DNA of 64,000 bases from Squalus acanthias. Lineage: Eukaryota. Below the pieces are notes generated by a model. The model worked only from the letters and a program-made list of their open reading frames with translations. It ran no database searches and was not told the DNA's origin. Every line of letters starts with the position of its first letter. Position 1 is the stretch's first letter. The position numbers were made by a program, and so were the translations under genes. Positions 1 through 62,969 of this stretch are shown here, one piece after another. Location of the stretch: positions 16,928,001 to 16,992,000 of the forward strand of contig CM059432.1 in NCBI GenBank assembly GCA_030390025.1, in the 5' to 3' direction.

Positions 1-2036
1 AGTCTAGTCAAGCAGCAGCCTGACAGTCATACTCACAGAATCATACCTTTCAGCCAATGTCCCAAACTCCATCATCACCATCCCTGGGTATGTCCTGACC
101 CACCGGCAGGAGACACCCACCAGGGGTGGTGGCACAGTAGTATACAGTCGGGAAGGAGTGGCTCTGGGAGTTTTCAACATTGACTCCGGACCCCATGAAG
201 TCTCATGGCTTCAGGTCAAGCATGGACAAGGAAACCTCCTGCTGATTACCACCTACCGCCCTCCCTCAGCTGATGAATCAGTACTCCTCCATGTTGAACA
301 CCACTTGGAAGAAGCACTGAGAGTAGCAAGGGCACAGAATGTACTCTGGGTGGGGGACTTCAATATCCATCACCAAGAGTGGCTCGGTAGCACCACTACT
401 GACTGAGCTGGCCCAGTCCTTAAGGACATAGCTGCCAGTCTGGGCCAACGACAGGTGGTGAGAGAACCAACACGAGGGAAATACCTACTTGACCTTGCCC
501 TCACCAATCTACCTGTCGCAGATGCATCTGTCCATGACAGTATTGGTAGCACTGACCGCCACACAGTCACTGTGCTAAATGGGATAGATTCAGAACAGAT
601 CTAGCAGCTCAAAATTGGGCATCCATGAGGCACTGTGGGCCATCAGCAGCAGCAGAATTGTATTCCACCACAATCTGTAACCTCATGGCCCGGCATATCC
701 TTCATTTTACCATTACCATCAAGCCAGGGGACCAACCCTGGTTCAATAAGGAGTGCAGAAGAGCATTCCAGGAGCAGCGCCAGGCATACCTAAATATGCG
801 GCGCCAACCTGGGGAAGCTGCAACACAGGACTACATGCATGCTAAAAAGCAGAAGCAGCATGCTATAGACAGGGCTAAGCGATCCCACAATCAACAGATC
901 GGATCAAAGCTCTGCAGTCCTGCCACATCCAGTCGTGAATGGTGGTGTACCATTAAACAACTAAAGGGAGGAGGAGGCTCCATGAATAACCCTATCCTCC
1001 ATGATGGTGGAGCCCAGCACTTGAGTGCAAAAGACAAGGCTGAAGAGTTTGCAATCATATTCAGCCAGAAGTGTCGAGTGGATGATCCATATTGGCCTCC
1101 TCCTGAGGTCCCCACCATCACAGAAGCCAGTCTTCAGCCAATTCGATTCACTCCACGTGCTATCAAGAAACGGCTGAGCGCACTGGATACAGCAAAAACT
1201 ATGGGCCCCGACAACATCCCAGCTATCGTGCTGAAGACTTGTGCTCCAGAACTAGCCGCGCCTCTAGCCAAGCTGTTCCAGTACAGCTACAACACTGGCA
1301 TCTATCCGACAATGTGGAAAACTGCCCAGGTATGTCCTGTCCACAAAAAGCAGGACAAATCCAATCCGGCCCCATCAGTCTACTCTCAATCATCAGCAAA
1401 GTGATGGAAGGGGTCATCAACAGTGCTATCAAGCGGCACTTACTCACCAATAACCTGCTCACGGATGCCCAGTTTGGGTTCTGCCAAGACCACTCAGCTC
1501 CCGACCTCATTAGAGGATTGGTCCAAACATGTCCAAAGTAGCTGAATTCCAGAGGTGAGGTGAGAGTGACTGCCCTTGGCATCAAGGCAGCATTTGACCA
1601 GGTGTGGCATCAAGGAGCCCTAGTAAAACTGAAGGAAATCAGGGGGGAAACTCCACTGGCTGGAGTCATACCTAGCACAAAGGAAGATGGTTGTAGTGGT
1701 TGAAGGTCAATCATCACAGTCCCAAGACATCAGGGCAGTGTCCTAGGCCAAACCATCTTCAGCTGCTTCATCAGTGACCTTCCCTCCAACATAAGGTCAG
1801 AAATGGGGTTGTTCGCTGATGACTGCAGTGTTGAGTGCCATTCACAATTCCTCAGATAATGAAGCAGTCCATGCCCCCATGCAACAAGACCTGGATGACG
1901 TTCAGGCTTGGGCTGATAAGTGGCAGGTAACATTCGCGCCACACAAGTGCCATGTAATGACTATCTCCAACAAGCGAGAGTCTAACCACCGCCCCTTGAC
2001 ATTCAACGGCATTACCATCGCCGAATCCCCCACCAT
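1..2036 (+). mobile_element. Decayed non-LTR retrotransposon ORF2 (APE + RT), a second LINE family distinct from the dominant CR1
   Basis: Endonuclease motifs TYRPP and VGDFN; RT-proximal GPDNIP..PELAAPLAKLF, QFGF and LFADD. Split by stops and frameshifts. Confidence 0.9.
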
Positions 2037-2280
2037 ACAGGCAGTAAGTACCTCATACCTGTTGGACAAGGTCAAGGGCTGAGGTTTCTCCATCACTATA
2101 TCCTGAGTCTCCATACCTTCCTGACTCGCAGTCACACCCTCCTGTCCCTGACCATTGGTTAACTCTAAAGTACTGCTTAACCTAAGGGGTGTGACTGCCT
2201 CCAGGAACAAAGTGTCCAGGTAACTCTCCCCTTCCCTGATGCATCGCAATGTCTGCAGCTCGGACTCCAGCTCAACAACT
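2037..2280 (-). mobile_element. CR1 ORF1 fragment, inverted relative to the adjacent CR1 body
   Basis: Minus-strand translation VELESELQTLRCIREGESYLD...PQPLTLSNRYEVL; LxNRY/F is typical of CR1 ORF1. Confidence 0.65.
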
Positions 2281-3760
2281 TTGGCAGGGGGGATGGGCAC
2301 CAGGATGTAGCATTAGAAAGGAGAAACAAGTGCACAAAGGATTAGGAGAGACAGATAGCACTAGAGTAAGAAATAGTAAGGTATTAGGTGGAGTCAGACT
2401 AAGAGAATACAAGAAGGTCTAGGATAGGTTTAAAGTGCATGTGTGTAAACGTACGAAGCGTGGTAAATAAGGTTGGTGAGCTGCAGGCACAAATGGCCAC
2501 ATGGAAATATGATGATGTGGTGATAACGGAGACCGAGCTCAAAAAAGGGTAGGATTGGGTTTTAAATATTCCTGGATACAAGGTATTCAGGAAAGATAGG
2601 GAAGGAAAGAAAGGAGGTGGGGTGGCAGTATTGGTTAAGGAGAATGTTACAGTGCTGGAGAGAGAGGATGTCTTTGAGGGGGTCAAGGGCAGAATCTATT
2701 TGGTTAGAGTTGAGAAATAATAGAGGTGCCATTACACTACGAGGTGTATTCTATAGGCCACCAACTAGTGGGAAAGATATACAGGAGCAAATTTGCAAGG
2801 AAATTACCGAGAGGTGCAAGAGCTATAGAGTAGTGATAATGGACTTCAATTATCCTAATATAGACTGGGATAGTAATAGTGTAAAGGGCAGAGAGGGGGA
2901 AGAATTTCTGAAGTGTGTTCAGGAGAACTTTCTTGATCAGTATGTTTCCGGCCCAAGGAAGGAGGCATTGCTGGATCTGGTTCTGAGAAATGAGGTAGGT
3001 CAAGTGGAGCAGTCGGGGAACATTTATGGAAGAGTGATCATAGTATCTTAAGGTTTCGATTAGCTATGGAAAAGGACAGGCAGCAATCTAGAGTAAAAAT
3101 ACTTGATTGGAGGAAGGCAAATTTCAGTGGGTTGAGAATGGATTGGGCCCGGGTAAACTGGAATCAAAGATTGGCAGGCAAAACTGTAATCTAATGGGCT
3201 GCCTTTAAAGAGGAGATGGCTTGGGTACAGCTTTGGTCTCCTTATTTAAGGAAGGGTATACTTGCATTGGAGGCAGTTCAGAGAAGGTTCACTAGGTTGA
3301 TTCCAGAGTTGAAGGGGTTGTCTTATGAGGAAAGGTTGAGCCTATACTCATTGGAGTATAGAAGAATGAGGGGTGATCTTATTGAAACATAAGATTCTGA
3401 GGAGGCTTGACAGGGTAGATGTAGGGAGGATGTTTCCCCTCGTGGGGGAATCTAGAATTAGGGGGCAGAGTTTCAGAATAAGGGGTCGCCCATTTAAAAC
3501 AGAGATGAGGAGGAATTTCTTCTCTGAGGGTCGTGAATCTTTGGAATTCTCTACCCCAGGGAGCTGTGGAGGCTGAGTCATTGAATATATTCAAGGTGGA
3601 GATAGACAGATTTTTGAAAAACAGGGGCATCAAGGGTTATGGGGAGCGGGCAGGAAAGTGGAGTTGAGGCCAAGATCAGATCAGCCATGATCTTATTGAA
3701 TGGCAGAGAAGGCTCAAGGGGCCAAATGCCCTACTCCTGCTCCTATTTCTTATGTTCTTC
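2281..3760 (+). mobile_element. CR1 LINE, internally deleted (APE region joined to the 3' end)
   Basis: GVFYRPP, DFNYP and LLDLVL endonuclease motifs, a jump near 3230 to the C-terminal SRxRG..MRRNFF, and the CR1 tail CCTACTCCTGCTCCTATTTCTTATGTTCT. Confidence 0.9.
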
Positions 3761-5725
3761 TATAGGTATGTAAAAAGGAAAAGATTAGCAAAAGTAAATG
3801 TGGGTCCCTTACAGGCTGAGACAGGAGAAATTATAATGGGGAATAAGGAAATGGCAGAGAAATTAAACACTTTGCATCTGTCTTCACGGAAGATGACGCA
3901 AAAATCTTCCTGGAAATAGGGAGGACCAAGGGTCTAGCGAGAATGAGGAACTGAAAGAAATTAGTATTAGTAAAAAAAAAATAGTACTGGAGAAATTAAT
4001 GGGACTGAAAGCCGATAATTTCCCTGGACCTGATGACCAACATCTTAGGGTTTTGAAAGTGGTGGCTATAGTGATAGTGGATGCATTGGTTGTCATCTTC
4101 CAAAATTCCATAGATTCTAGAACGGTTCGAGAAGGATCTCTGATTATAATCGCTCAACTTTTGGTGGCCATGCCTTCTGTTGCCTGGGCCCTAAGCTCTG
4201 GAATTCACTGCCTAAACCTCGCCGCCTCTCTTTCCTCCTTTAAGACGCTCCTTAAAACCTACCTCTTTGACCAAGCTTTTGGTCACCTGCCCTAATTTAT
4301 CCTTATGTGGATCGGTGTCAAATTTGTCATAAAATACTCCTGTGCAACGTTTTACTACGTTAAAGGCGCTATATAAATACAAGTTGTTGTTCCCACAGAT
4401 TGGAAGGTAGCAAATGTAACCCCACTATTTAAGAAAGGAGGGAGAGAGAAAACGGGGAACTACAGACCAGATAGCTTGACATCAGTAGTAGGGAAAATGC
4501 TAGAATCTATTATTAAGGGTGTGGTAACAGGGCACTTAGAAAATAATAATAGGATTGGGCAGTCAACACGGATTTATGAAAGGGAAATCATGTTTGACAA
4601 ATCTGTTAGAGTTTTTTGAGGTTGTAACTAGCAGAATAGATAAGGGGGAACCAGTGGATGTGGAGTATTTGGATTTTCAGAAGACATTCGATAAGGTTCC
4701 ACACAAGAGGTTATTAAACAAAATTAGGGCTCATGGGATTGGGGGTAACATACTAGCATGGATTGAGGATTGGTTAACGGACAGAAATAGGAATAAACGG
4801 GTCATTTTCGGATTGGTAGGCTGTAACTAGTGGGGCACCGCAAGGATCCGTGCTTGGGCCTCGGCTATTCACAATCGATATCAATGATTTGGGTGAGGGG
4901 ACCAAATGTAATATATACAACTTAGCTGATGATACAAAGCTGGGTGGGAATATAAGTTGCGAGGAGGATGCAAAGAGGCTTCAAGGGGATATAGACAGGC
5001 TAAGTGAGTGGGCAAGAACATGGCAAATGGAATATAATATGGAGAAATGTGAAGTTATCCACTTTGGTAGGAAAAATAGAAAAGCAGAGCATTTTTTAAA
5101 TGGAGAGAGATTGGGAAATGTTGGTGTTCAGAGGGACCTGGGTGTCCTTGTACACAAATCACGAAGTTAACATGCAGGTACAGCAAGCAATTAGGAAAGC
5201 AAATGGTATGTTGGCCTTTATTACAAGAGGATTTGAGTATAAGAGCAAAGATGTCTTACTGCAATTATATAGGGCCCTGGTGAGACCACAGCTGGAGTAT
5301 TGTGTACAGTTTTTGTCTCCTTACCTAAGGAAGGATATACTTGCCATAGTGGGAGTGCAACAAAGGTTCACCAGACTGGTTCCTGGGATGGGGGGATTGT
5401 CCTATGAGGAGAGATTGAGTAGACTAGGCCTATATTCTCTGGAGTTTAGAAGAATGAGGGGTGATCTCATTGAAACATAAAAAATTCTTACAGGGCTTGA
5501 CAGGGTCGATGCAGGGAGGATGTTTCCCCTGGCTGGGGAGTCTAGAACCAGGGGTCACAGTCTCAGAATAAGGGGTCGGCTATTTAGGACTGAGATGAGG
5601 AGAAATTTCTTCACGCAGAGGGTGGTGAATCTTTGGAATTCTCTACCCCAGAGGGCTGTGGAGGCTCAGTCGTTGAGTATATTCAAGACAGAGATCGATA
5701 CATTTTTGGATATTAAGGGAATCTG
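3761..5725 (+). mobile_element. CR1 LINE ORF2 RT region, decayed, interrupted by an L2-type 3' tail at about 4135-4390
   Basis: QHGFMKGKSCLTNLLEFF, LDFQKTFDKVPH, LADDTKLGG and RPQLEYCVQF across broken ORFs. Confidence 0.92.
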
Positions 5726-10667: not shown

Positions 10668-11656
10668 AGCAAAATACTGCGGATGCTGGAAATCTGAAAT
10701 AAAAACAGAAAATGCTGGAAATATTCAGTAGGTCAGGCAGCATCTGTGGAGAGAGAAACAGAGTTAACGTTTCAGGTCGATGACCTTTCATTAGAATTCG
10801 AAAAAGTTAGAGATGCAACAGGTTTTAAGCAAATACAGAGACATGGAAAGGGCAGAGGGAGGACATAATAAAAGGGAAGCTCTATGATAGGGTGGATGAT
10901 AAAAAGGATGATGGTAATGGGACAAATAAAGAAACAAAAGATAGGTCCAGAGGTGTAAATGGGAATAGCAGAATCATTACCAACAGTTGCTGTCTGAACA
11001 AATGGCAACAGTGTTTATAATCTGAAATTGTTGAACTCAATGGCGAGTCGGGAACGCTGTAAAGTACCTAATCGAAAGATGAGGTGCTGTTCCTTGAGTT
11101 TCAATGTAATGTGTTCTCTTTGATCATGGTATTCACTGAAAAGGGAAGATTTTGCTGTGGGCTGGTGCCTGGGATGGGTATCCCCTATCAGTACACAGCT
11201 GGTGAGATTGGTCTGCACCCCTAATGTCACCTGATTTTTTTCTTCCACCCAACTCTCAGGCCACTTGAGCCTTCTCCACTTGGCTAGATTTTCCACACTT
11301 CCCTCTCCCTCTGCTGTTCTGCTATAACCATTTACACATCATCTAGCTCTCGGATACATCTTATATTTCTCTCATTATCGTCTCCTTTTGTCAAACCATC
11401 ATCACTTCTGTCATTTAATCATCTCCTGTCCTCTACCTAATCATTGACCATTTGTTTTTTCCCTCCCTGCTCCTTTTCCCTGGCTCTGTCATCCTTTAAG
11501 CTATTCACCTGCAACATCTCCTGGTTCTGATGAAATGTCATCGATCTGAAACGTTAACCCGACCTTCCTCTCGCCACAGATACTGCCTGACCTGCTGAAT
11601 GTTTCCAGCATTTTCTGTTTTTATTTCAGATTTCCAGCATCCGCAGTATTTTGCTT
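10668..11656. mobile_element. Penelope-like element remnant with inverted ends
   Basis: Minus-strand end 10668-11110 encodes KLKEQHLIFRLGTLQ..IEFNNF (GIY-YIG C-terminus-like). The same terminal sequence recurs on the plus strand at about 11520-11656. Both ends carry hammerhead-like cores. Confidence 0.75.
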
Positions 11657-12585
11657 AAGAACATAAGAAATAGGAGCAGGAGTAGGCCATTCGGTCCTTC
11701 GAGCCTGCTCCGCCATTCAATGAGATCATGGCTGATCTTCTGCCTCAACTCCATTCACCGGCCCTATCACCATATCCCTTGATGCCCTTACTAGTCAGAA
11801 ATCTATCGACTTCTGTTTTGAATATACCCAATGACTGAGCCTCCACAGCCCTCTAGGGTAGAGAATTCCAAAGATTCACCACCCTCTGTGAAGAAATTTC
11901 TTCTCATCTCATTCCTGAATGGCCTACCCTTTATCCTGAGGCTGTGGCCCCTGGTTCTTGACTCCCCAACCAAGGGAAACATTCTCCCAGCATCCATCCT
12001 ATCAAGCCCTGTAATAATTTTGTATGCTTCAATGAGATCCCCTCTCATTCTTCTGAATTCAAGAGAATACAGGCCTAGTTTACTCAATCTCTTCTCATAC
12101 GACAGTCCCACCATCCCAGAAATCAATCTCGTGAACCTTCGTTGCACTCCCTCTATGGCAAGTATATCCTTCCTTAGGAAAGGAGACCAAAATTGTACAC
12201 AGTACTCCAGGTGTGGTGTCACCAAGGCCTTATATAATTGGAGTAAGACTTCTTTACTCCTGTACTCAAATCCTCTTGTAATGAAGGCCAGCATACCATT
12301 TGCCTTCCAAATGGCTTGCTGCACCTGCACATTTACTTTCAGTGACTCATGTACAAGGGCACCCAGGTCCCTTTGAGCACCTGCATTCCCCAATCTTTCA
12401 CCATTTAGGGAATACTCTGCCTTTCTGTTTTTTCTACCAAAGTGGATAACTTCACATTTATCCACATTATATTCCATCTGCCATGTTCTCGCCCACTCAC
12501 TGAGCCTGTCGAGATCCCCTTGAAGCCTCTTCACATCCTCTTGGCAACTGACACTGCCACCTAGCTTTGTATCATCAGCAAATTT
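11657..12585 (-). mobile_element. CR1 LINE 3' portion
   Basis: ORF 11803..12534 (LQGDLDRLSEWA...HLEYCVQFWSP...SRTRGH) followed by the CR1 tail. Confidence 0.93.
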
Positions 12586-12890
12586 GCTTTTTGTTTCATT
12601 ATTTACCTCTGCCTGTCATTTACATTAATAATTTCATTTTCAAAAAAAAGGAAATAAACAACCATTTTTCAGTCTACACAAGTAGCCACTTAAAGACAAT
12701 TGTGGGCTTTTTTTTTTTAATACAGGGCCGGCTATTTAGTAATGTAAAGTGGTGTTTAATAATTCAGCACCCCTCAGGTCATAATAGACAAGTTATATTG
12801 TATTGAAAGCACCAGACTTAAAAATGAAGAAATACAAGGCTATTGTTTAAACTGGTTAATTATGCAATTTAAGTTTGGTATCTCACATAC

Positions 12891-18491: not shown

Positions 18492-19273
18492 GTGTACAGT
18501 CAACTACAGTACTGTAGACAGTCGTTTATAAGTTTTGTTTTACTGTTAAGTAATTAAAGAGTTATGGATTACCCTCAACTGGCAGTACTGTACTTAATCA
18601 AGCATCTTCCACTATCCATTTAACACAACATTCTGTAGGTGAGTACCCAAATACTGTATACTGCACATTTCTTGATTTTTTTATGTTAAAAATAGCCTCG
18701 GTAGATATAACTCTCCGTTATCCGGTACTTTCGATAAACCGGCACCACGCCGGTCCCGTCGATGCCGGATAAACGAAAGTTTCCTGTAGTACATTGGAAT
18801 GCTTTTATTTAAAATAAACTAATTTCAATGAGTTCATTGCTATTACCGAGCTGTACAATGGAACAAGAAAGTTCCACGTTTGACGCTTGCATTTGCTGAG
18901 TTAACTAATTTCAATCGAGCTGCTAGAACTGACCTCATTGATCCTAACTAGAGACATGGACATTCACTATGCAGAACAACAACTACTTGGAATCATAGAA
19001 TGATACAGCACAGAAGGAGGCCATTTGGACCATCGTGCCTGTGTTACCTCTTTGGTAAAGCTATCCAATTCGTCCCACTCCCCTGCTCTTTCCCCAGCTA
19101 TGTCTCAGTGGGTAGCACTCTCGCCTCAGAGTCAGAAGGTTGTGGTTCAAGTCCCCCTCCAGGGACGTGAGCACATAAATCTAGGCTTACACTCCAGTGC
19201 AGTGCTGAGGGAGTGTTTTATAAAGGTTTAGCATAACTTCCTTGCTTTTGTTCTCTATGCATCTATCAATAAA

Positions 19274-19440
19274 ATTGAGAGGTCGCACAACACCAGGTTA
19301 TAGTCCAACAGTTTTATTTGAAATCACAAGCTTTCGGAACTATCGCTCCTTCCTCAGGTGAAGTAGCGATAGTTCCGAAAGCTTGTGATTTCTCAATTTT
19401 GTCCACCCCAGTCCAACACCGGCATCTCCGCATCATGACC
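19274..19440. mobile_element. Short fold-back retro-insertion (family B, Penelope-end type) with 12-bp TSD
   Basis: TCTATCAATAAA at 19262-19273 and 19441-19452; internal inverted arms; closely similar to 37272-37481. Confidence 0.85.
19324..19361 (-). ncRNA. Minimal type-I hammerhead ribozyme motif (family B)
   Basis: UCAC-CUGAGGA-A-GGAGC-GAUA-GUUCC-GAAA-GCUU-GUGA. Intact CUGANGA/GAAA/UH core; stems I and II pair. Confidence 0.75.
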
Positions 19441-31949: not shown

Positions 31950-34580
31950 GAATTGTGGAAGATCAGGAAGTAGAATCAGTATGGGTGGAGATGAGGAATA
32001 ACAAGGGGCAGAAAACACTGGTAGGAGTAGTATATAGGCCCCCTAACGGTAGCTGTACCGTTGGACAGAATATTAATCCAGAAATAGTAGGAGCTTGCAA
32101 CAAAGGTAATGAAATAATCTTGGGGGACTTTAATCCTTACATAGACTGGACAAATCAAATTGGCAAAGGTAGTCTGGAGGATGAGTTCATAGAATGCATT
32201 TGGGACAGTTTCCTAGAACAATGCGTCATGGAACCAGCCAGAGAACAGGCCAATTTAGATCTTGTATTGTGTAATGAGACAGGGTTAATTAGCAATCTCA
32301 CAGTAAAGGATCCTCTGGGGCAGAGTGATCATAATATGATAGAATTTCACCTTAATTTTGAGAGTGACTTGCCTAAGTCCGAAACTAGAGTCTTAAACTT
32401 AAATAAAGCCAATTACATAGGTATGAGGGGCGAGTTGGCTAAGGTAGATAGGAAAAATAGATTAAAAGGTCTGGTGGTAGATAAGCAGTGGAGCATTTAA
32501 AGAAATATTTCATAATTCTCAACAAAAATACATTCCATTGAGAAACAAAAACTCCACGGGAAAAGTGATCCAACCGTGGCTAACTAAAGAAGTTAAGGAT
32601 AGCATTAGATTGAAAGAAGAAGCTTATAATGTTGCAAAGAATAATAGTAAGCCTGAGGATTGAGAGAGTTTCAGAAACCAGCAAAGGCTGACCAAAAAAT
32701 TGATAAAGGGAAAAAATAGAATGAGAAAAAACTAGCAAGAAATATAAAAGCAGATTCTAAGAGTTTCTACAAGTATGTAAAAAGGAAAAGTAGCAAAAGT
32801 AAATGTTGGTCCCTTAGAGGCTGAGACAGGAGAAATTATTATGGGGAATAAGGAAATGGCAGAAATGTTAAACAAATATTTTGTATCTGTCTTTACAGTA
32901 GAAGACACAAAAAGCATACCAAAAATGGTGGGGAACCAAGGGTCGAATGAGGGTGAGGAACTTAACATAATTAATATAAGTAGAGAAAAAGTACTAGAGA
33001 AACTAATGGGACTAAAAGCCGACAAATCCCCTGGGCCTGACGGCCTACATCCTAGGGTTCTAAAAGAGGTGGCTGAAAAGATAGTGGATGCATTGGTTTT
33101 GATCTTCCAAAATTCCCTCGATTCTGGAATGGTCCCAGCGGATTGGACGGTCGCAAATGTAACACCACTATTCAAGAAAGGAGGGAGAGAAAAAACAGGG
33201 AACTACAGGCCAGTTAGCCTGACATCAGTTGTCAGGAAAATGCTGGAATCCATTGTTAAGGAAGTGGTACCAAGTCACTTAGAAAATCATAACATGATTA
33301 GGCAGAGTCTACATGGTTTTATGAAAGGGAAATCGTGTTTGACAAATTTATTAGAGTTTGTTGAGGATGTAACTAGGCAGGGTAGATAAAGGGGACCCAG
33401 TGGATGTAGTATATTTGGATTTCCAAAAGGCATTCGATAAGGTGCCACATAAAAGGTTATTACACAAGATTAGGGCTCAAGGGGTTGGGGGTAATATAGT
33501 AGCATGGATAGAGGATTGGTTAACGGACAGAAAACAGAGAGTAGGAATAAACAGATCTTTTTCAGGTTGGCAGGCTGTAACTAGTGGGGTGCCGCAAGGA
33601 TCAGTGTTGGGGCCTCAGCTATTTCCAATCTATATTAATAACCGAGATGAAGGGAACGAGTATAATGTATTCAAGTTTGCTGATGATACAAAGCTAGGTG
33701 GGACAGTAAGCTGTGAGGAGAACACAAAGAGTCTGCAAAGGGATATAGATAGATTAAGTGAGTGGGCAGTAAGGCGGCAGATGGAGTATAATGTAGGGAA
33801 ATGTGAGGTTATTCACTTTGGTAGGAAGAATAGAAAAACAGAATATTTTTTAAATGCTGAGAAACTTTCAAATGTTGGGTGTCCTCGTGCAAGAAACACA
33901 GAAAGCTAGCATGCAGGAACAGCAAGCAATAAGGAAGGCAAATGGCATGTTGACCTTTATTGCAAGGGGGTTGGAGTATAAGACTACGGAAGTCTTGCTG
34001 CAATTGTACAGGGCCTTGGTGAGACCACACCTGGAGTACTGTGCACAGTTTTGGTCTCCTTATCTAAGGAAGGATATACTTGCCTTGGAAGCGATGCAAC
34101 GAAGGTTCACTAGATTGATTCCTGGGATGAGAGGGCTGTCCTATGATGAGAGGTTATGCAGAATGGGCCTATACTCTCTGGAGTTCAGAAGAATGATCTC
34201 ATTGAAACATATAAGATTCTGAAGGGGATTGACAGGGTAGATGCTGAGTGGTTGTTTCCCCTGGCTGGAGTGTCCAGAACTAGGGGCATAGTCTCAGGAT
34301 AAGGGGTAGGCCATTTAAGACTGAGATGAGGAGGAATTTCTTCACTTACTCAGAGGTTGTGAATCTTTGGAATTCTCTGCCCTAGAGGGCTGTGAATGCC
34401 GAGTCTTTTATTATATTCAAGGCTGAGATAGATAGATTTTTGGACTCATGGGGAATCAAGGGATATGGAGATCAGGCGGGAAAGTGGAGTTGAGGTCGAT
34501 GATCAGCCATGATCTTATTGAATGGCGGAGCAGGCTCAAGGGGCCGTATGGCCTACTCCTGCTCTTATTTCTTATGTTCT
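31950..34580 (+). mobile_element. Near-complete CR1 ORF2 (APE-RT) with frameshifts, plus 3' tail
   Basis: ORFs 31955, 32841, 33400 and 33854 carry GVVYRPP, GDFN, SDHN, NYRPVSLTS, DFQKAFDKVPH, GVPQGSVLGP, FADDTKL and HLEYC. Confidence 0.95.
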
Positions 34581-35330
34581 TAATCACTGCCCCTTGACAT
34601 TCAATGGCATTACCATCACCGAATCCCCTACCATCAACATCCTGGGGGTCACCATTGACCAGAAACTTAACTGGACCAGCCACATAAATACTATGGCAGC
34701 AAGAGCAGGTCAGAGGCTAGGTATTCTGCAGCAAGTGTCTCACCTCTTGACTCCCCAAAGCCTTTCCACCATCTACAAGGCATAAGTAAGGAGTGTGATG
34801 GAATACTCTCCACTTTCCTGGATGAGTGCAGCTCCAACAACACTCAAGAAGCTCAACACCATCCAGGACAAAGCAGCCCGCTTGATTGGCACCCCATCCA
34901 CCACCTTAAACATTCACTCCCTCCACCACCGGCGTACCGTGGCTGCAGTGTGTACCATCTACAAGATGCACTGCAGCAACTCGCAAAGGCTTCTTCCTCA
35001 GAACCTCCAAAACCCGCGACCTCTACCACCTAGAAGGACAAGGGCAGCAGGCGCATGGGAACACCACCACCTCCAAGTCACACACTATCCTGACTCAGAA
35101 GTATATTGCCGATCCTTCATCGTCACTGGGTCAAAATCCTGTAACTCCCTACCTAACTGCACAGTGGGAATACCTTCACCACACGGACTGCAGCAGTTCA
35201 AGAAGGCGGCTCACCACCACCTCTCAAGATGGCGGCTCACCACCACCTTCTCAAGGGCAATTAGGGATGGGCAATTAATGCTGGCCTTGCCAGCGACGCC
35301 CACATCCCATAAAAACTAATTTAAAAAAAC
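34581..35330 (+). mobile_element. 3' end of the second LINE family
   Basis: ILGVTIDQKLNW and MEYSPL...HSLHHRRTVA; homologous to 56495-57265 and overlapping the end of 1-2036. Confidence 0.88.
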
Positions 35331-37271
35331 CTCAGTGGCATGGGTGCCAATCAACTGGACTGCTTTGTCCTGGATAGGGACAAAGAGTTTCTACTCAATG
35401 TGCTAAGGAACAAGAGGAATAAATAAGTGGTACCTGATGCAGGATAGGATACGGAAGGTAGAATTCATGTTGGGTGGCGCTCAGAAGGCCAAAGAACAGT
35501 GAAATCTGGAGGTAACAAAGGCATGAATAAATGTTTCAATGGAAGTGGGGGGTGAGGCAAGGAATAAACCACAATATTCTGGAGATGATAATAGGCAGGC
35601 TTAGTGATAGACTGGATGTAAGGATGTAAAACTCACTGTTGAGAAGAACGTGGAGGTTGTTTACCATTACAGTGTGAGTGGCGGAAGAGGTACAAAGATG
35701 GGTATTGTCAGCATACCTGTGCTTACAAATAATGTCACCAGGGGCAACATATTGATGAGGAACAGGAGGCACGTAAGCATGGAACCTGGGAGCACACCAA
35801 AGGTGACTTTGTGGGCATAGGCGGAGAAGCAACTAGAGGAGATGTGCTGGCTGCATTGGAAAAAGTAACAATGAAATAAATAGCAATTAAACAAAGGACG
35901 CCATGAAGAGGGATGGCGCAGTAACCTACATCAAAAGCCAGAGAAAAATCGAGAACTATTAGAAGGGATAACACCACCTTGGTCACAGTCACACAGAATG
36001 CTGTTGATGACTGACCAGAACAGTGCAAGGGCTTTGGGTGGGATCAAAGCCAGATCGAAAGGATGGGAACATGGAGTGATGAGTTTACAGTTGGGTATAT
36101 GCAACACATTCCATAATCCTAAAATGAAAAAGAGCGTAGCAAGAAACAGTAGTGACAAAGTTTAGCACATCCAGCTTGTTTGCTCTTTGTTAATGAGTAT
36201 TGAGACAGCTTGTGATTATAGGCAATTCGCTAGGATATATATTTTTAAACTGTATTCTTTAAAAGGTAATTTCCATTGCAAACTGCTGAACACAAGTTGC
36301 ATTACAGACTATAGAAGTACCATAGGGCGTGATCTACTTATGTCCGGATCCAGAGGCTGGGCTTGGCAAAACAATTCAAATATTTATTTTTGTTTAATAT
36401 TTCTCTCCCTCTCTAAACTTGACCCTCGAATTATCAGATAACTGGATATCAATGAATTAGGTCTCAGTTGGCATTTTTCCAAACAAACATATTAGTGACA
36501 ACCATCCTGGTGTGTATATCTGACATTGTTCCTTCATTGTCCCTGGGTCAATATTCTGGAATTTCCCACCTAAACACCAGCATAGAAGCACCAGCACCAC
36601 AAGGACAACAGTGGTTCAAGAAGGCTGCCCACCACCACCTTCTAAGGCAACTGGGAATGGGCAATAAGTGCAGCCTTGCCAGTGTCGCCCCCATGCCAAG
36701 AACAAATACAAGAAACAAAAAGAAAAGCAACTGCCAGGTCCAAGCTGAAATCATAACATTTTGGGTACAAAGCTAAGAGCAAGAAGCATCTTATAGTTTG
36801 AACTGCAGGTATTTGACAGAACCACCATAGTACAATTTTTCCCCAAAAGGACCCCAAGCTAACTGTACCCAAGCTAACTGTACCAGTACCAATTAAGGTA
36901 TAAACTTTGTTCACAAGTATTAAGCTCTATGGCCTTCTATTAGGACCATCTGTAATCCAATTACTGTATATAAAAAGAGTTGTGTACAATATTCAAGTTT
37001 GGTCTTAAAAAAATAAAAAAAGTCATGATGCTAAATGTTTATGTTTTAATTTCTTGGACTACTACCTCATGAACTTCATCCAGCCATGCTGCAAAGAATA
37101 CATGACTAGCAAAGTGAGCTACTAATTGACAGATCTATAATCTTCACCGATCTGAGAAGCTGCTGTTGCACATTTTGTTGAATTCATTTTGTTTTTTTTT
37201 TAATAACAGTATAAAAAAAGTTAAAGATGTATTTGGTACTTCAGTGAACCTGCCATTTCAACAATTGTATT

Positions 37272-37481
37272 AAAGTGAGAAGTCGCACAACACCAGGTTA
37301 TAGTCCAACAGTTTTATTTGAAATCACAAGCTTTCGGAGCGGCTGCTCCTTCGTCAGGTGACGAAGGAGCAGCCGCTCCGAAAGCTTGTGATTTCAATAA
37401 AACTGTTGGACTATAACCTGGTGCTTTGCGACTTCTCACTTTTGTCCACCCCAGTCCAACACTGGCATCTCCGCATCATGG
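37272..37481. mobile_element. Palindromic fold-back retro-insertion (family B) with 13-bp TSD
   Basis: About 85-bp inverted arms at 37272-37356 and 37359-37442 around a 2-nt centre. TSD CAACAATTGTATT at 37259-37271 and 37482-37494. Confidence 0.9.
37324..37361 (-). ncRNA. Minimal type-I hammerhead ribozyme motif (family B)
   Basis: UCAC-CUGACGA-A-GGAGC-AGCC-GCUCC-GAAA-GCUU-GUGA. Confidence 0.78.
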
Positions 37482-39393
37482 CAACAATTGTATTGTTTCA
37501 GGTCCCTGAATGTCTTCTCACAGAGTTCACAGTTTGATCTAATTTAGTCAAATTGAAGGAGTGGAATGGGTCAGTTGGTCACAGATTTTTTTAGTGAAAT
37601 GTGGAAGAAAAAATGTGAACAAGACTTCAATATAGGCATTCCCTCATAAGGTACAGTGTGTATCAAGCTGTTGGGAACACACTATCTATCCTTGGATTCA
37701 AAAGTTGTGGATCTGTCTCAGTCCCTGACAGTAATTAAATCAGACAGTTATCAAATAGAATTTTTTCCTGTTAGAATTAGTTGCTCATCAATATCTATCT
37801 CCTTCAGATACCACTGATCTTACACCATTTTAGTCAGTCTAATTCCTGAGACATAAGCCAAGTGCTTATTACTGACCTTTCACTACATATAAAATTTGTA
37901 TATATGTATGAAGGGACCAAATTTTTGGTAAGAAATATTATTTTTAAGCTGTGGTAGCCTTTTACTGGAATGAATTCAATTTCCAATATGTTGATATAGA
38001 TCTCAGAAATAAAACTTTCCACAGATTGTAGGTTTTCCTTTTCAAAGCAATAAATGCATTAAAAGCATTTCTCAAAGCACCACGCATCATTCTAATATTT
38101 AGATAAGACTTTTCTGGTAAAAATTGCAGCATGTCTTCAATACTAATGACAACAGAAACAGATCTGAAAACGAAAGCCTTGTTCATTAACTGTTTGTGCA
38201 CCAGGACCATTTGTGGGGCCATCCTGGTTAAAAGGAATCCTGGACAGAGTCAACACCTTTCATATAAAAAATCATAATGGCAACATAAACATTTGTTTAA
38301 CAAGTGAACAATTTCAGTTACATAAAACAATAAAAGCTATTCAATTTATATTGGGCAAATGTGATTTATCTCAATTCAGAATTAACAAATGCTTCAAATG
38401 AATGCTCTGTTATTGTTTATTACATATAACGCATTAATGAGACTATAATTTCACACTTCGGCTTTCTTAATCTATTCTATAACACACTATTTAGTGGTGT
38501 CACCATTCTGCAATATACCACTGCTTCGTGGAAAGCTAAGCTGCTGTACAAAGTGTAACAACAGACATTCATTCCGTGCCAAACAAAAAAAATATTGTTG
38601 AAAATCCAAATGAAAGCACTGAATCAGGTGTATGCCACTGCAACGGATGGATTGCGGGGGAGGGAGATGTGTTCACATATTTCTAAAAAAGGTACCGAAA
38701 ATGAAACTCCTCAATTCAGGAACAACGAAATAAACGAATCCCTCCCCTCTGGAGAAACAAAACCTTCGGAAAAAACAGGAGAGAAAGCAGGTAGTGCGGA
38801 TCAATAGCCGCAACTCTCCTCTGCATATACTGTTAACTGCAATATGTACACAACCAATTGAGGCACGCACCGTATACACACATACACTTCACTGATCGCA
38901 GCCTTTGCAAATGCAGTAAAAGTGCACGATGTTACTCACGCGCACACACACACACAAATACATACCCCAGGCCCAAATACAACAAAACCCCAACACTTCA
39001 AATAATCACCTCTGGTGATATTTTTTTTTTTGCCCACCGCTATCAGGACCAGAATGAACTTGGTGTCAGGGGAAAAAAAAAATACAAAACCGTCTGCTTA
39101 CATCTGTTGCACTTTATTTATGCAAGAATTAAAATTTAAAAGTCCACCCCCCCCCCCACCTCTCTCCTTCCTTTCTGAAGGGCCGGACAGAGGGAAGAAC
39201 AAGGATTGCGGGCGACACTCTCCCTCCCCATCCATCCTGGCGCTGCAAACTTCGCCACTCCAAACAGCATTCAGTTATTAAACACCCTTTTCCTACCAAC
39301 GGCTTTGTGTGTGTGTGAGGGAGGAGAGAGAAAAACATCAGACACCTCCCCTCCGTGGTTTAACATTTAAAACAAAAAATAACACTCACTTAC

Positions 39394-39760
39394 TTTCTGT
39401 TCAGTTAAAGGAGGAAAAAAAATCCGCTGCTCCGGAGAAGCCGTTGTGTTCTGCCAGGCAATACTTGCAGAAGACAACACCACAAAAAAAAAATCATGAG
39501 GAGGAGGGGAGGGAAAAAAAAAGGTTTTTCAGATTCCGGCCGCGTTTTCTTTGACACACACGCACGCTCCGCAAAAAAAAATAATACCTCAGCGGAGCTC
39601 CCTCCTCCCCTGCCCTGCCACCAGCCGCCGCCGCTCTTGCCACCTCCTCCTCCTCCTCGCTTCCCTCTGTCTCGCTCTCTCTCAGCCCAACGGCTGACAA
39701 GCCGCCGGCCGCACTGGACGCTGGGAGGCATTGTCAGCTCTCCAAAATGGCGGCTGTGAA
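39394..39760 (-). other. Candidate first (5'UTR) exon of an unidentified host gene
   Basis: GGA/GGC-repeat leader downstream of the YY1 motif, ending in ACAGAAA|GTAAGTGAG and followed by T/GT-rich intron-like sequence. TSS is approximate. Confidence 0.6.
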
Positions 39761-55264: not shown

Positions 55265-57330
55265 GGGGGGAATTTTAACTTTGAGGAGCACGTGGGTTTA
55301 GGTGCAGGTGGGGTTAAAGTCGGCGAAAATGTCAGTGTGGCCGGAAGCTGGCTCTCACACGCATCGACTACTGGATTCAACTCTGGCGCGTTCAGCTGCT
55401 TGCGCGTAACCCCCTCTGGAGAGGCGGGTTAATAAATTGCAGCGATATTTTAACCGGCATTTAAATTTAACGCCACATGCATGGGTTTACCGGGCTTCCT
55501 GAAATTCACCATTGAAACCATGGCGAGAACAGAATGGCAATTCATGGGGCTCATTAGAAGTCAGGTATACAACAGCAATAAATAGTCAGTGCTCACAGCT
55601 GCTTTCGTACCTACCACTGGGAAAGCGTTTGTTGAGAGTACTTGTGAGAGGCTAATTTCTGCATTTTGGAGGTATCAAGACTCAAGATCAGAATGGGTGA
55701 CGCTATGGCTGCCTTAGATTGGACCTTAGACGAGGAGCAAGATGACCAGCAGCAACAGCCTGCTGTGGAGTGACCTGCAGGTGGTCAGCAGAGAGGTCAA
55801 GCTCACAGGAGGCACCAACCACGTAATAGGGTGTACAGGCTTCCTTGCCGTCTCGGAAGGGCATTGCTTCCAGAGGCTGAGGTTGTCATGTCAGGTGGTG
55901 GGAGACATCTGCAGCCTCCCAGAAGAAGACTTGCTTCCTGCTGGACCTGGTGGCCACGAGTTACCAGTGCCTGTTGGTGACCACCAACTTTTTTGCCTCC
56001 AGATTCTTCCAGGGCGCTACTGGAGACATCCAGGATCTCCCAGTCAGCTGCACATAAATGCACCGGTAGCTCACTGATAGGTTGTTTGACAGGGCCAGCA
56101 ATCATGTCCATTTTGCCTGTGATGACACTAGACAGAATGTTTAAGTGGTGTGCAACCACCAGAAAAGGTTTATGCAGGTGTGCGCCAGATTCCCGGGCAG
56201 CTGCCATGATGCTTTCCTGCGGCAGTCCAAGATCTTTGACCTCTTTGGACCTGCAAGCAAACTTGAGGAGTAGCTGCTAGGAGACAAAGGATACTCCCTT
56301 CAAACTTGTCTGATGACGCCTGTGAGAAACCCAACCAATAAAGCCCAAGAGCAACAAAAGCCATATGACAACCAGATGTGTCACGGAGCAAGCAATTGGC
56401 ATGCTCAAGATGCGATTCAGGTGTCTGGGCAGATCTGGAGGCGCCCTTTACTAATCGCCAGCCAGGGTCTCCAGAATGATCATGGACTTTTTAAAAATTC
56501 GTTCCTGGGATGTGGGCATCACTGGCAAGGCCAGCATTTATTGCCCATCCCTAATTGCCCTTGAGAAGGTGGTGGTGAGCCACCGCCTTGAACCACTGCA
56601 GTCCGTGTGGTGAAGGTACTCCCATAGTGCTGTTAGGGAGGGAGTTCCAGGATTTTGACCCAGTGACGATGAAGGATCGGCGATATATTTCCAAGTCAGG
56701 ATGGTGTGTGACTTGGAGGGGAACCTGGAGGTGATGGTATTCCCATGCGTCTGCTGCCCTTGTCCTTCTAGGTGGAAGAGGTCGCGGGTTTGGGAGGTGC
56801 TGTCGAAGAAGCCTTGGCGAGTTGCTGCAGTGCATCTTGTAGATGGTACACACTGCAGCCACGGTGCGCCGGTGGTGGAGGGAGTGAATGTTTAAGGTGG
56901 TGGATGGGGTGCCAAACAAGTGGGCTGCTTTGTCCTGAATGGTGTCGAGCTTCTTGAGTGTTGTTGGAGCTGCACTGATCCAGACAAGTGGAGAGTATTC
57001 CATCACACTCCTGACTTGTGCCTTGTAGATGATGGAAAGGCTTTTGGGAGTCAGGAGGTGAGACACTCGCCGCAGAATACCCAGCCTCTGACCTGCTCTT
57101 GTAGCCACAGTATTTGTGTGGCTGGTTCAGTTAAGTTTCTGGTCAATGGTGACCCCCCCAGGTTGTTGATGGTGGGGGATTCGGTGATGGTAATGCCGTT
57201 GACTGTCATGGGGCGGTGGTTAGACTCTCGCTTGCTGGGGATAGTCATTGCCTGGCACTTGTGTGTGCACAACATTGTGCAGCAGCGAGGATTGGAGCTG
57301 CAGATCGCATCATGCAGGTCCGCACCATTC
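55265..57330 (+). mobile_element. Decayed PIF/Harbinger transposon (HARBI1-like transposase pseudogene), split by a LINE
   Basis: Left end TAA|GGGGGGAATTTT. Peptides CFQRLRLSCQVVGDIC, RISQSAAHKC, LLGDKGYSL..LMTPVRNP (56274), TRCVTEQAIGMLKMRFRCLGRSGGAL (56371) and CVHNIVQQRG after the LINE (about 57261). Right end not identified. Confidence 0.82.
56495..57265 (-). mobile_element. 3' end of the second LINE family, inserted in the Harbinger element
   Basis: ORF 56551..57108 (YKAQVRSVMEYSP...HSLHHRRTVA). Confidence 0.9.
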
Positions 57331-60990: not shown

Positions 60991-62184
60991 TGCCTTGTCA
61001 TTCTGAACCGCACAGAAACAATTTCTGCCTAGTGCAATTCCTAAGCTGGTTAACAGCTTAATTCCTTTTCATCCCCACAATTGAAAATTAATAAGATAAC
61101 TGAAGGGTAGAATCTTCTTTGCAAATTTAAATGAGAAGGGAACGGTGTGTGTGTTTACGTGGGGGGAGGGAGAAAGGTGGAAAGAAGGGTACTTTCAAAA
61201 GAAAATAATTCCTCCTGCTAGATATTCTTGAAAAAAACCAAGATATTTACATTTAAAATTTCCTTTCCCTTCTCCATGGAGACCCATCATTAAGTATATT
61301 TACTGCGCTCAGCATCAGGGTGGAAGCTACTACACTAACACAAGTGATGATACCAATAAACAAATGGTTCCATTCGATGCAGATCGACATCTGGCCTGGC
61401 TCTGGATGCCACCTGGGAAAAAATTCAAACGGAGGGAAATTTAGTACCAGCTTACAACTGAAGTGTACAAGGCTAATACTGATCCCAACTGATACACACA
61501 ATATTGGGGGGAGTGTAACAGGATCCATACATTGTACTTAATCCACGCTGTATGTCAGTTGGGTATTTGATGCTGGCACTGGGGCCAAAAAAAGAAAACT
61601 GCTTTTATTGCTGTCAGACCCAAAGCAGGTTGCTGCTGGGAAAGCTCAGTTAAAAACAAGAGAACAGACTGGGGATTGAATTTGTGACTTTTCTGGTTTG
61701 TGGTGATAAATCTTTCTTGAATTTATGATAGTTATAAGATTGTGCTGGTAAGTAAGTTTGCATAGTTTACTTCAAAAATGAAGTATGTAAAATATAATAT
61801 GCTTACTAGCTGTTTATTCTTTAGTATTTGTCAGTCTGAAGTACTGGGATCTTGGTTTCATGTCACGCTACGTGACGTAGAGTCATCCAGACTCGAGTCG
61901 TCGTTGGCTTGTTCACAGATGTGATTTCCAGTTTTAAAAAAAAGTAAAAAGCTTAACCATACAGACTGCAGCATTTGACACGTTGGCACCCCCTGTGACC
62001 CCACCTCATTGTCTTAGCTGTATTTTGCTGTGTCTTTGATGTAATGCCTTCCTGACTGGCCTGATTGTATCTCTGCCGAGCTGTGATGGAGGGCAGTCAG
62101 AAGGATTTACTGTAGTCGTCTGACATTGTACGCTACACATTGTTCTCTGTCTATATATGCTGTGCCGATTTGTATTTCTTCACT

Positions 62185-62221
62185 TCACCTGACGAAGGAG
62201 CAGCGCTCCGAAAGCTCGTGA
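62185..62221 (+). ncRNA. Minimal type-I hammerhead ribozyme motif (family B)
   Basis: UCAC-CUGACGA-A-GGAGC-AGC-GCUCC-GAAA-GCUC-GUGA, followed by the family-B tail to about 62273. Confidence 0.8.
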
Positions 62222-62969
62222 TTTCAAATAAAACTGTTGGACTATAACCTGGTGTTGTGCGACTTCTCATTTTTGACAAATATGAAATTTCGGATCAAAA
62301 GTTCTTACATATAACAAGGCACGAGGAGCTAAAAAATATTGTTTAGTTCTCCACTTTTCAAGTACAATAGAATATTCTTACAATGTGTGCATGTAGATAA
62401 AAGAGTTACATATAATAGGATGTTCAACGGGCAACTAAACCAATGTTGTCCACCAGAAAATGCTGACGAGCCACAGGTGTGGTTACAGCAACACCGTTTT
62501 AGCCACATGTATTAATTTTAGCAGAAAATGCCTCACATAAACTCACACAATGCAGGTAAATGTACTTCACGTGTATATTTACTTATCAAACATCTACCAC
62601 CATTCACTCACCAAGGAAGCAAAGCACTCACAACGATCAAAAAACACTTGCAAACTCTGCTTTTAATCAAACCATTTTACCAACTAATGTACAAAAAGTT
62701 TAAAGTACACATGTATACACCATGTGAATATGAGTATTGATATCAATCACGTGCCCATGTATGGTATCTATTACTTAATGTTATTTACTAATCAGAAATG
62801 CAATTATCCACATCTGGATTCCCAATTAGCCATATGTGGGTAGTAGCTATTATAGTGGACTACACTATGTGAGGACTGAAACTGTTAATTAATAACTTTC
62901 ATACGTTACATCATTACCAAGTTTACTTACATTAGGATTTGTAGTTAGCTGAACCATTTAATGCCATTT

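What the first reader, a model, noticed from the sequence alone, without database searches (positions are those of the whole stretch)
37259..37494. Tiny palindromic, TSD-flanked retro-insertion built around a hammerhead ribozyme
Seen: a 210-bp non-coding insert forms an ~85-bp near-perfect hairpin whose symmetry centre lies at the start of a hammerhead core (TTCGTCA-GG-TGACGAA). The minus strand has a complete core and the plus strand lacks C3. A ~40-nt tail and a 13-bp TSD follow. Established: Penelope-like elements carry minimal hammerheads and often insert with inverted ends. Inference: a non-autonomous ribozyme-bearing mini-element (retrozyme-like or Penelope end-only insertion). Intronic transcription would give long dsRNA that should sequester the ribozyme.
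Basis: partly seen in the sequence, partly recalled or inferred. Interest (0 to 1): 0.72.

Follow-up and report, generated by a model that had tools for sequence, protein, structure and literature searches.

The report
Head-to-head Penelope stump marking RNA start
This 210-base mirror-image DNA is one of thousands of stumps left by a very common Penelope-type jumping gene, not a separate ribozyme element; its halves likely meet beside the ribozyme motif because each was likely copied from the front of the gene's capped RNA, which likely starts a few bases ahead of that motif.

Summary
It is a truncated head-to-head insertion of a 3.1-kb Neptune-type Penelope-like element (PLE). The genome holds at least 34,301 tail copies, 4,544 such tiny palindromes, and intact 892-aa RT + GIY-YIG ORFs in tandem arrays. 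Inverted copy + one-sided tail + TSD is a published PLE layout. Junctions do cluster at the ribozyme (51 of 140 arm ends within -10..+1, 7 in the next 12 nt upstream), but at a TATA/Inr-type start just ahead of the core, often with an extra G (cap-like), not at the cut site (+30), where any excess is small and confounded. Arm outer ends match two RT start sites and no palindrome has two tails. Likely mechanism: both nicked strands prime cDNA on sense RNA, the cDNAs run off the 5' end and are joined by microhomology. A retrozyme-like mini-element is not supported. Cleavage, start site and transcription are untested. The scan already reported this class in this and other genomes. New member of a known kind.

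The parts
37259..37271 (.). Left copy of the target-site duplication (13 bp)
   Evidence: family mode 12-13 bp
37272..37361 (-). Tailless arm: pLTR positions -4 to about +86 (+1 = the T after C3), identical to the family sequence
   Evidence: outer end at +79..+89 in 65 of 70 sister palindromes
37324..37361 (-). Minimal type-I hammerhead motif with complete core: stem I UCAC/GUGA, CUGACGA, bulged A, stem II GGAGC/GCUCC, GAAA, palindromic AGCU in place of stem III; predicted cut after 37328
   Evidence: sequence; fold; family conservation and covariation; cleavage not tested
37359..37361 (.). Head-to-head junction: 3-nt microhomology TGA shared by both arms; removes C3 from the plus-strand motif
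   Evidence: same junction in 7 of the first 50 tiny palindromes, both orientations
37359..37442 (+). Paired part of the tailed arm (pLTR +1 to about +85), hammerhead core lacking C3; one deletion and two substitutions against L002
37443..37481 (+). 39-nt Penelope 'tail', ending just past the parent's ATG start codon (37478-37480)
   Evidence: tailed arms end at +119..+126 in 82 of 98 copies
37482..37494 (.). Right copy of the target-site duplication

Best explanation
The insert is a stump of an abundant autonomous Neptune-type Penelope-like retrotransposon: two short, oppositely oriented copies of the element's pLTR/5' leader inside one 12-13-bp duplication, likely made when the element's nuclease cut both target strands and each cut end primed reverse transcription of sense RNA, the two cDNAs likely running off the predicted capped 5' end just ahead of the hammerhead core and likely being joined head to head by microhomology. 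Shown here: identity with the parent's leader, copy numbers, fixed outer ends (about +80-88 and +121-125), one tail only, TSD length, pile-up of inner ends at -7 to +1, TATA and Inr-like motifs at that place, excess of G before -7. Inferred: that -7 is the transcription start and the G is the copied cap; that the outer ends are RT start sites (by position, as in Poseidon PAc in vitro); twin priming; end joining. Unresolved: whether the two cDNAs read one RNA molecule or two. The hammerhead is a passenger here: the stump has no promoter, and host transcription through it would bury the motif in a hairpin.
For: Parent: 3.1-kb unit with RT (Pfam RVT_1 E 1.4e-8), DKG, YIDD, CX5CxxC linker and a GIY-YIG-type VVY...YIG motif; 7 intact 892-aa ORFs in tandem arrays of 3,138-3,139-bp period in 4 of 5 fetched regions. 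Abundance: 34,301 exact tail matches; 4,544 head-to-head cores within 30 nt. Unselected first 100 tail copies, 2 duplicates dropped: 76 of 98 have an adjacent inverted arm, 70 of them starting at +55 or beyond, 65 of 70 at +79..+89, none at +100 or beyond. Of 50 centre-selected palindromes 47 have one tail, 0 have two; of the other 3, two show a damaged tail on one side. Inner ends: 51 of 140 at -10..+1 against 7 at -22..-11 (binomial p 2e-9); of 100 ends in tiny palindromes 19 stop at -7 and 15 go further. TATATA starts 30-31 nt before the -7 A in 8 of 9 long copies; the -9..-5 Inr-like letters are 97-99% conserved in 100 long arms. G precedes 17 of 19 ends at -7, where the template has C or T (p 7e-4 against a crude 50% null); about 14 cases have a G that no neighbouring template explains against about 3 with another letter (by eye). 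An extra G marks the cap in full-length L1 insertions (PMC11702581, passages). All 11 ORF-to-leader joints restart at -7/-8, on tailed and on tailless arms. The tailless arm reaches more than 5 nt further upstream than the tailed one in 30 of 70, the reverse in 19. 6 of 50 listed inner-centre palindromes have a loop-less AAGCTT centre. 4 of 92 arm pairs differ by a linked multi-site variant (by eye). PAc cuts and extends both strands and has two RT starts that bound the tail (PMC11167929).
Against: No RNA data show the start site or the cap: only contigs were available. Many G cases are also explained by the partner arm's own letters. Arm depths are strongly coupled (long/long 15, short/short 47, mixed 8 of 70, Fisher p 1e-8; rho 0.77 among 15 long pairs) and arms within an insert are more alike than between inserts (1.7 against 5.2 differences, 0 of 10,000 permutations); both are what fold-back copying predicts, and twin priming explains them only if both cDNAs read one RNA or are trimmed in register. 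The commonest junctions can be read as snap-back hairpins with 2-4-nt loops. In PAc no strand difference in RT start site was seen in vitro, whereas here tails are strictly one-sided. Inner ends also spread over +2..+37 (38 of 140). Samples come from the first megabases of contig C1 and from exact-match patterns, which favour young copies. No empty site was seen for this locus.
Confidence: 0.72

Rival explanations
1. Fold-back: one cDNA is made, its 3' end snaps back on itself and is copied to give the second arm, or self-priming occurs on an antisense template as proposed for Adineta Penelope; asymmetry comes from later deletions at the palindrome centre.
For: Coupled arm depths and high arm identity; common junctions read as 2-4-nt-loop hairpins and some carry repeated templated insertions; proposed in PMC3846280 (passages).
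Against: The tailless arm is the longer in 30 of 70 and cannot template the tail; loop-less AAGCTT centres and the blunt -7/-7 join of L243 suit two ends annealing; L278 and L283 have a jumped tailless arm and an inverted tailed arm reaching about -6/-8, which one snap-back cannot give; 4 of 92 pairs carry different linked variants; the cap-like G points to a sense template; no reason for a fixed stop at +80-88.
Confidence: 0.15
2. The ribozyme sets the junction: RT stalls at the folded hammerhead, or self-cleavage creates the template's 5' end.
For: The centre sits at the core; arms beginning exactly at the first base after the predicted cut number 432 against 168 and 103 at the neighbouring positions; 38 of 140 ends fall within +2..+37.
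Against: The main pile lies upstream of the whole motif, so RT passed through it; palindromes centred near the cut are about tenfold fewer (432, one variant only; against 4,544); 10 of 30 inspected +30 ends are explained by stem-I microhomology and 2 by internal indels; HHR mutants do not affect PAc insertion in vitro.
Confidence: 0.07
3. A non-autonomous, retrozyme-like mini-element: a short master RNA or palindromic master is copied as a unit.
For: Identical junctions recur at unrelated sites (window type 7 of 50; L183/184/189/192; L105/L109); 11 copies show an about 200-nt leader-plus-ORF-start duplication.
Against: Recurrent junctions occur with the tail on either side; outer ends and TSDs differ per copy; insert lengths run from 131 bp to over 1 kb with arms reaching into the endonuclease ORF; the 11 joints all differ and form no arrays; intact autonomous sources exist.
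Confidence: 0.06

Closest known systems
EN+ Penelope-like insertions with inverted pLTR, one-sided tail and TSD (Adineta vaga Pen2a_Av, PMC3846280, passages; general scheme in Craig et al. 2021, PMC8557442, passages)
   Same: Inverted 5'-truncated copy, 30-40-bp tail at one end, TSD, TATA plus a TCACT Inr-like motif in the pLTR, palindromic junction.
   Different: Here the whole insert is only the leader (210 bp), in thousands of copies; TSD 12-13 bp rather than 8-10; the data favour a capped sense template and two primings over the antisense self-priming proposed there.
Poseidon PAc of Anolis carolinensis in vitro (Frangieh et al. 2024, PMC11167929, parts 1-2 of 4 read)
   Same: Hammerhead at the pLTR/ORF junction; RT start 111-118 nt after stem II (here tailed ends lie about 113-118 nt after stem II); tail between two start sites; AT-rich targets (TSDs 71% A+T against 53% of loci); both strands cut and extended.
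   Different: Neptune-type linker here; the ORF starts at the tail's end rather than at stem II; that paper does not treat inverted arms or 5' run-off in the parts read.
Minimal hammerheads of metazoan PLEs (Cervera and de la Pena 2014, PMC4209133, parts 1-2 of 4 read)
   Same: Type I, 4-bp stem I, bulged base before stem II, G10.1-C11.1 pair, palindromic 15-16 segment; pairs of motifs on opposite strands 100-700 bp apart were already noted.
   Different: Stem II is 5 bp; the two cores here overlap and one has lost C3.
Non-LTR retrozymes (Li et al. 2026, 10.64898/2026.07.22.740005, part 1 of 5 and passages)
   Same: PLE-derived, non-coding, type-I hammerhead, similar size.
   Different: Retrozymes are direct tandem repeats with a motif in each unit; this is an inverted pair with one intact core and no array.
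L1 twin priming and cap-derived extra G (PMC11702581, passages)
   Same: Second priming from the other target end, discrete TSD, microhomology at the junction, extra G at the RNA 5' end.
   Different: In L1 the inverted parts are adjacent, nearly non-overlapping pieces of the RNA; here both arms copy the same stretch.

Membership tests
EN+ Penelope-like element (parent) | Single ORF with RT and C-terminal GIY-YIG endonuclease | tested here: met
   892-aa ORF, RVT_1 E 1.4e-8; DKG, YIDD, VVY-x12-YIG with two cysteines between. Pfam did not hit the nuclease; it is called by motif.
EN+ Penelope-like element (parent) | Tandem or partial-tandem layout forming pLTRs | tested here: met
   Arrays of 3,138-3,142-bp period; partial tandems L161-L164
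EN+ Penelope-like element (parent) | Inverted 5'-truncated copy, 30-40-bp tail at one end, TSD | tested here: met
Neptune clade | CX2-5CxxC linker between RT and EN (shared with Nematis, absent in Penelope/Poseidon) | tested here: met
   CHGKLCKTC at residue 753; definition in PMC8557442
Neptune clade | RT phylogeny groups with Neptune rather than Nematis | not tested
   No named reference proteins fetched; Neptune and Poseidon are the vertebrate groups reported in the 2026 preprint
Minimal type-I hammerhead ribozyme | Core C3 U4 G5 A6 N7 G8 A9 / G12 A13 A14 A15.1 / U16.1 H17 | tested here: met
   Minus strand complete. In 100 long arms anchored outside the core: C3 99, U4 92, G5 99, A6 98, G8 98, A9 99, G12 98, A13-A15.1 100, U16.1 99; N7 takes all four letters; position 17 is T 90, C 10, never G. 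Plus-strand copy fails (C3 lost).
Minimal type-I hammerhead ribozyme | Stems I and II kept by covariation | tested here: met
   19 hand-picked variants: 98.4% of cells paired, 2 pairs with two-sided change (C-G to U-A in stem I, 7 rows, possibly one event; C-G to U-A in stem II, 1 row), three G-U changes. Few independent events.
Minimal type-I hammerhead ribozyme | Self-cleavage as monomer or dimer | not testable with these tools
   Genomic footprint at +30 inconclusive
Minimal type-I hammerhead ribozyme | Match to an Rfam hammerhead model | tested here: not met
   a lack of stem III may put it outside those models (own knowledge)
Non-LTR retrozyme | Direct tandem units, each with a complete hammerhead | tested here: not met
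   Inverted pair, one intact core; 11 duplications, no arrays (only one joint position was searched)
Non-LTR retrozyme | Abundant monomer or circular RNA | not testable with these tools
   No raw RNA reads listed

The most novel reading that the evidence does not exclude
The thousands of stumps are a fossil map of the Penelope replication intermediate: a capped, sense-strand RNA is primed twice, at two sites about 38 nt apart, one from each cut target strand, and both copies run off the cap. This would settle the sense-versus-antisense template question and explain inverted pLTR, one-sided tail and fixed TSD in one step; the small excess of ends at +30 may also record hammerhead cleavage in the germ line. 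Intact source ORFs in the same genome make it directly testable.
Probability: 0.55. Interest if true: 0.62.

Novelty: new member of a known kind. Interest (0 to 1): 0.42.

Why it matters
The locus itself is ordinary debris. The family matters because how Penelope-like elements build inverted ends and a one-sided tail was left open in the papers read (PMC3846280, PMC8557442, PMC11167929). A family with tens of thousands of young copies and intact tandem sources gives statistics for that question and a protein to test. It also warns annotators: these hairpins score as miRNA precursors or look like MITEs or retrozymes, and at least 4,544 of them could form about 85-bp double-stranded RNA when host genes are transcribed through them.

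Tried and rejected
Rfam scans found no hammerhead; miRNA hits are generic hairpin matches far below gathering score, rejected. Pfam missed the nuclease fragment. No RNA holder on record was listed; contigs cannot show starts, so says nothing on the start site or expression. No contig spanned the empty site of this locus. A sharp junction pile at the hammerhead cut site was looked for and not established. A retrozyme-type 200-nt tandem family was looked for at one joint position and not found. A crude exon scan found no convincing coding exon near the insert, so the host gene is unnamed. A cofold of two 48-nt hammerhead regions paired through stem II rather than the AGCU segment, so it does not support the dimer model. 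One search dropped the wrong duplicates (L109 and L120 have unique flanks); the counts were redone dropping only L110 and L087; the TSD control, insert lengths and A+T figures still come (n = 69). The 92 arm pairs include about three mis-pairings (L051 long, L123 long, L043) and a few alignments that run into flank. Literature searches for a twin-priming or 5'-run-off account of PLE palindromes, or for this shark family, found none (open-access library only; supplements not read, and those of PMC11167929 may bear on the end positions). A sequence look-up among earlier findings was empty.

Full report
Observation. Every stated feature is present. The insert 37272-37481 (210 bp) lies between identical 13-mers; its arms match at 82 of 85 positions; a 39-nt tail follows; the centre is TTCGTCA-GG-TGACGAA. 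I number the arm with +1 at the T after C3 (window 37359). The left arm covers -4 to about +86 on the minus strand and holds a complete minimal type-I hammerhead (37361-37324); the right arm covers +1 to about +124 and lacks C3. The two overlap by TGA. Rfam has no hammerhead match here or on an intact pLTR.

What it belongs to. The genome is 3.7 Gb; that it is a shark is my recollection of similar repeats and the wording of earlier notes, not a tool result. The arm is a high-copy repeat: 34,301 exact matches to a 29-nt tail motif and 4,544 head-to-head cores within 30 nt, both lower bounds. Longer copies run upstream into a GIY-YIG-type nuclease and downstream of the tail into an ORF starting at about +120. 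The unit is about 3.1 kb. Four of five fetched array regions hold intact ORFs: 7 of 892 aa, at 3,138-3,139-bp spacing, with RVT_1 (E 1.4e-8), DKG, YIDD, a CX5CxxC linker and VVY...YIG. The linker marks Neptune or Nematis (PMC8557442); no tree was built. The intact arrays are of a sister subfamily (stem II loop differs), so the window's own source may be older.

Anatomy across copies. I took the first 100 tail matches in genome order, mapped them and dropped 2 flank duplicates (one search had dropped two wrong ones). 76 of 98 have an adjacent inverted arm; 70 of these start at +55 or beyond, 65 at +79..+89, none at +100 or beyond. Tailed arms end at +119..+126 in 82 of 98. TSDs of 12-13 bp occur in 43 of 70 (13 had none detected), against 0 of 69 controls. 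In 50 palindromes chosen by their centre, 47 have one tail and none has two. This is the published PLE layout (PMC3846280, passages; PMC8557442, passages), and opposite-strand hammerhead pairs were noted in 2014 (PMC4209133). In PAc the tail lies between two RT start sites, 111-118 nt after stem II, and both target strands are cut and extended (PMC11167929); the tailed ends here lie at the same distance.

Where the halves meet. In 50 tiny palindromes, ends pile at -7 (19), -6 (12), -4 (23) and +1 (9), and 15 of 100 go beyond -7. Position -7 is the A of an Inr-like YYACTT, 97-99% conserved, with TATATA 30-31 nt upstream in 8 of 9 long copies; the same TATA/TCACT pair is described for Adineta pLTRs. 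17 of 19 ends at -7 are preceded by G where the template has C or T. Half of that is expected from the partner arm's letters (p 7e-4 against that crude null), and about 14 cases have a G no neighbour explains against about 3 with another letter (by eye). Genome-wide, 4,648 arms have a non-C there; of the first 100, 56 are G, 29 T (mostly a templated variant) and 15 A. An extra G is the cap signature in L1 (PMC11702581). All 11 joints from the ORF start back to the leader restart at -7/-8. I infer that -7 is the capped 5' end of a sense transcript; no RNA data could test it.

The cut site. Arms starting at +30 number 432 against 168 and 103 at neighbouring positions (the three patterns differ in stringency). 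Of 30 inspected, 10 are stem-I microhomology joins and 2 internal indels, leaving at most a modest excess. Palindromes centred near the cut are about tenfold fewer than those at the start. Earlier notes from other genomes report piles at the cut; here that is inconclusive.

How the second arm arises. For twin priming: fixed outer ends at two sites; the tailless arm, which cannot template the tail, is the longer in 30 of 70; loop-less AAGCTT centres in 6 of 50 and a blunt -7/-7 join; L278 and L283 need both arms to be RT products; 4 of 92 pairs carry different linked variants. For fold-back, or for one shared RNA: depths are coupled (Fisher p 1e-8; rho 0.77) and arms of one insert are more alike than arms of different inserts (1.7 against 5.2 differences). 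The strictly one-sided tail suggests one RNA-protein complex with two priming sites. I favour twin priming, 5' run-off and microhomology joining (0.72) and leave one RNA or two open. The window's junction is such a join: 7 of 50 share it, at least 3 in each orientation, so it recurs independently and is no master copy.

The ribozyme. Core letters are 92-100% conserved while N7 takes all four bases and position 17 is never G. Stems I and II show two two-sided changes and three G-U changes among 19 chosen variants, few independent events. The lone arm folds stems I and II (probability 0.57-0.79); in the full insert they vanish (0.000). The plus-strand copy has C3G, which kills the PAc ribozyme. 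Activity is untested, and such motifs are weak, dimer- or protein-dependent.

Host context. A strong minus-strand donor lies at 39393, and one contig of a run guessed to be RNA matches 39394-39477 exactly and leaves the window at that base, while another contig crosses it. The insert is therefore likely in the first intron of an unnamed minus-strand gene, on the strand with the intact core; this is weak evidence.

Verdict. A real, well-described feature that is a new member of a known kind. The layout is in print; the twin-priming and capped-run-off reading was not found in my searches but has been reached by earlier unreviewed notes of this scan on this and other genomes; I had written it down before seeing them. 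Interest 0.42, carried by testability with intact sources.

Noticed in passing
window 19271-19437: Second palindromic stump of the same family (another stem II variant) with a 12-bp TSD and a deletion in the tailed arm.
   Followed up: partly
window about 61860-62280: Tailless arm of the family running from the end of the nuclease ORF to about +88, with no partner arm or TSD found.
   Followed up: partly
   Followed up: no
window 39394-about 39750, minus strand: Likely non-coding first exon with a strong donor at 39393, in a GC-rich stretch; gene not identified.
   Followed up: partly
L286, L287, L289, L290: Tandem arrays of the parent with 7 near-identical intact 892-aa ORFs, two with an inverted copy upstream; candidate active sources.
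   Followed up: partly
L275-L285: 11 inserts in which an arm starting at -7/-8 is joined to sequence ending about 60-75 nt into the ORF, as if RT jumped from the RNA 5' end to another template; close to the minimal RNA boundary reported for PAc, but the search pattern selected this position.
   Followed up: partly
L223, L227, L040: Element leader or ORF start continues into the same unrelated GC-rich repeat; in L223 both arms do, suggesting a chimeric template or a targeted insertion.
   Followed up: no
L183, L184, L189, L192; L105, L109: Identical complex junctions at unrelated sites; in the first set the tail is on either side, so they are recurrent; the second pair might be a re-mobilised palindrome or an unmodelled subfamily.
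   Followed up: partly
stem II loop, family-wide: The loop differs between the two arms in 29 of 92 pairs, often by a 1-nt AGC/AGCC/AGCA change that occurs on several backgrounds, while a nearby marker differs in only 5 of 92: an error hotspot or two templates.
   Followed up: no
window 1-1600, 2274-5700, 11650-12600, 31950-35300, 56490-57220: Many decayed LINE fragments with RT or endonuclease-like frames; family names not tested.
   Followed up: no
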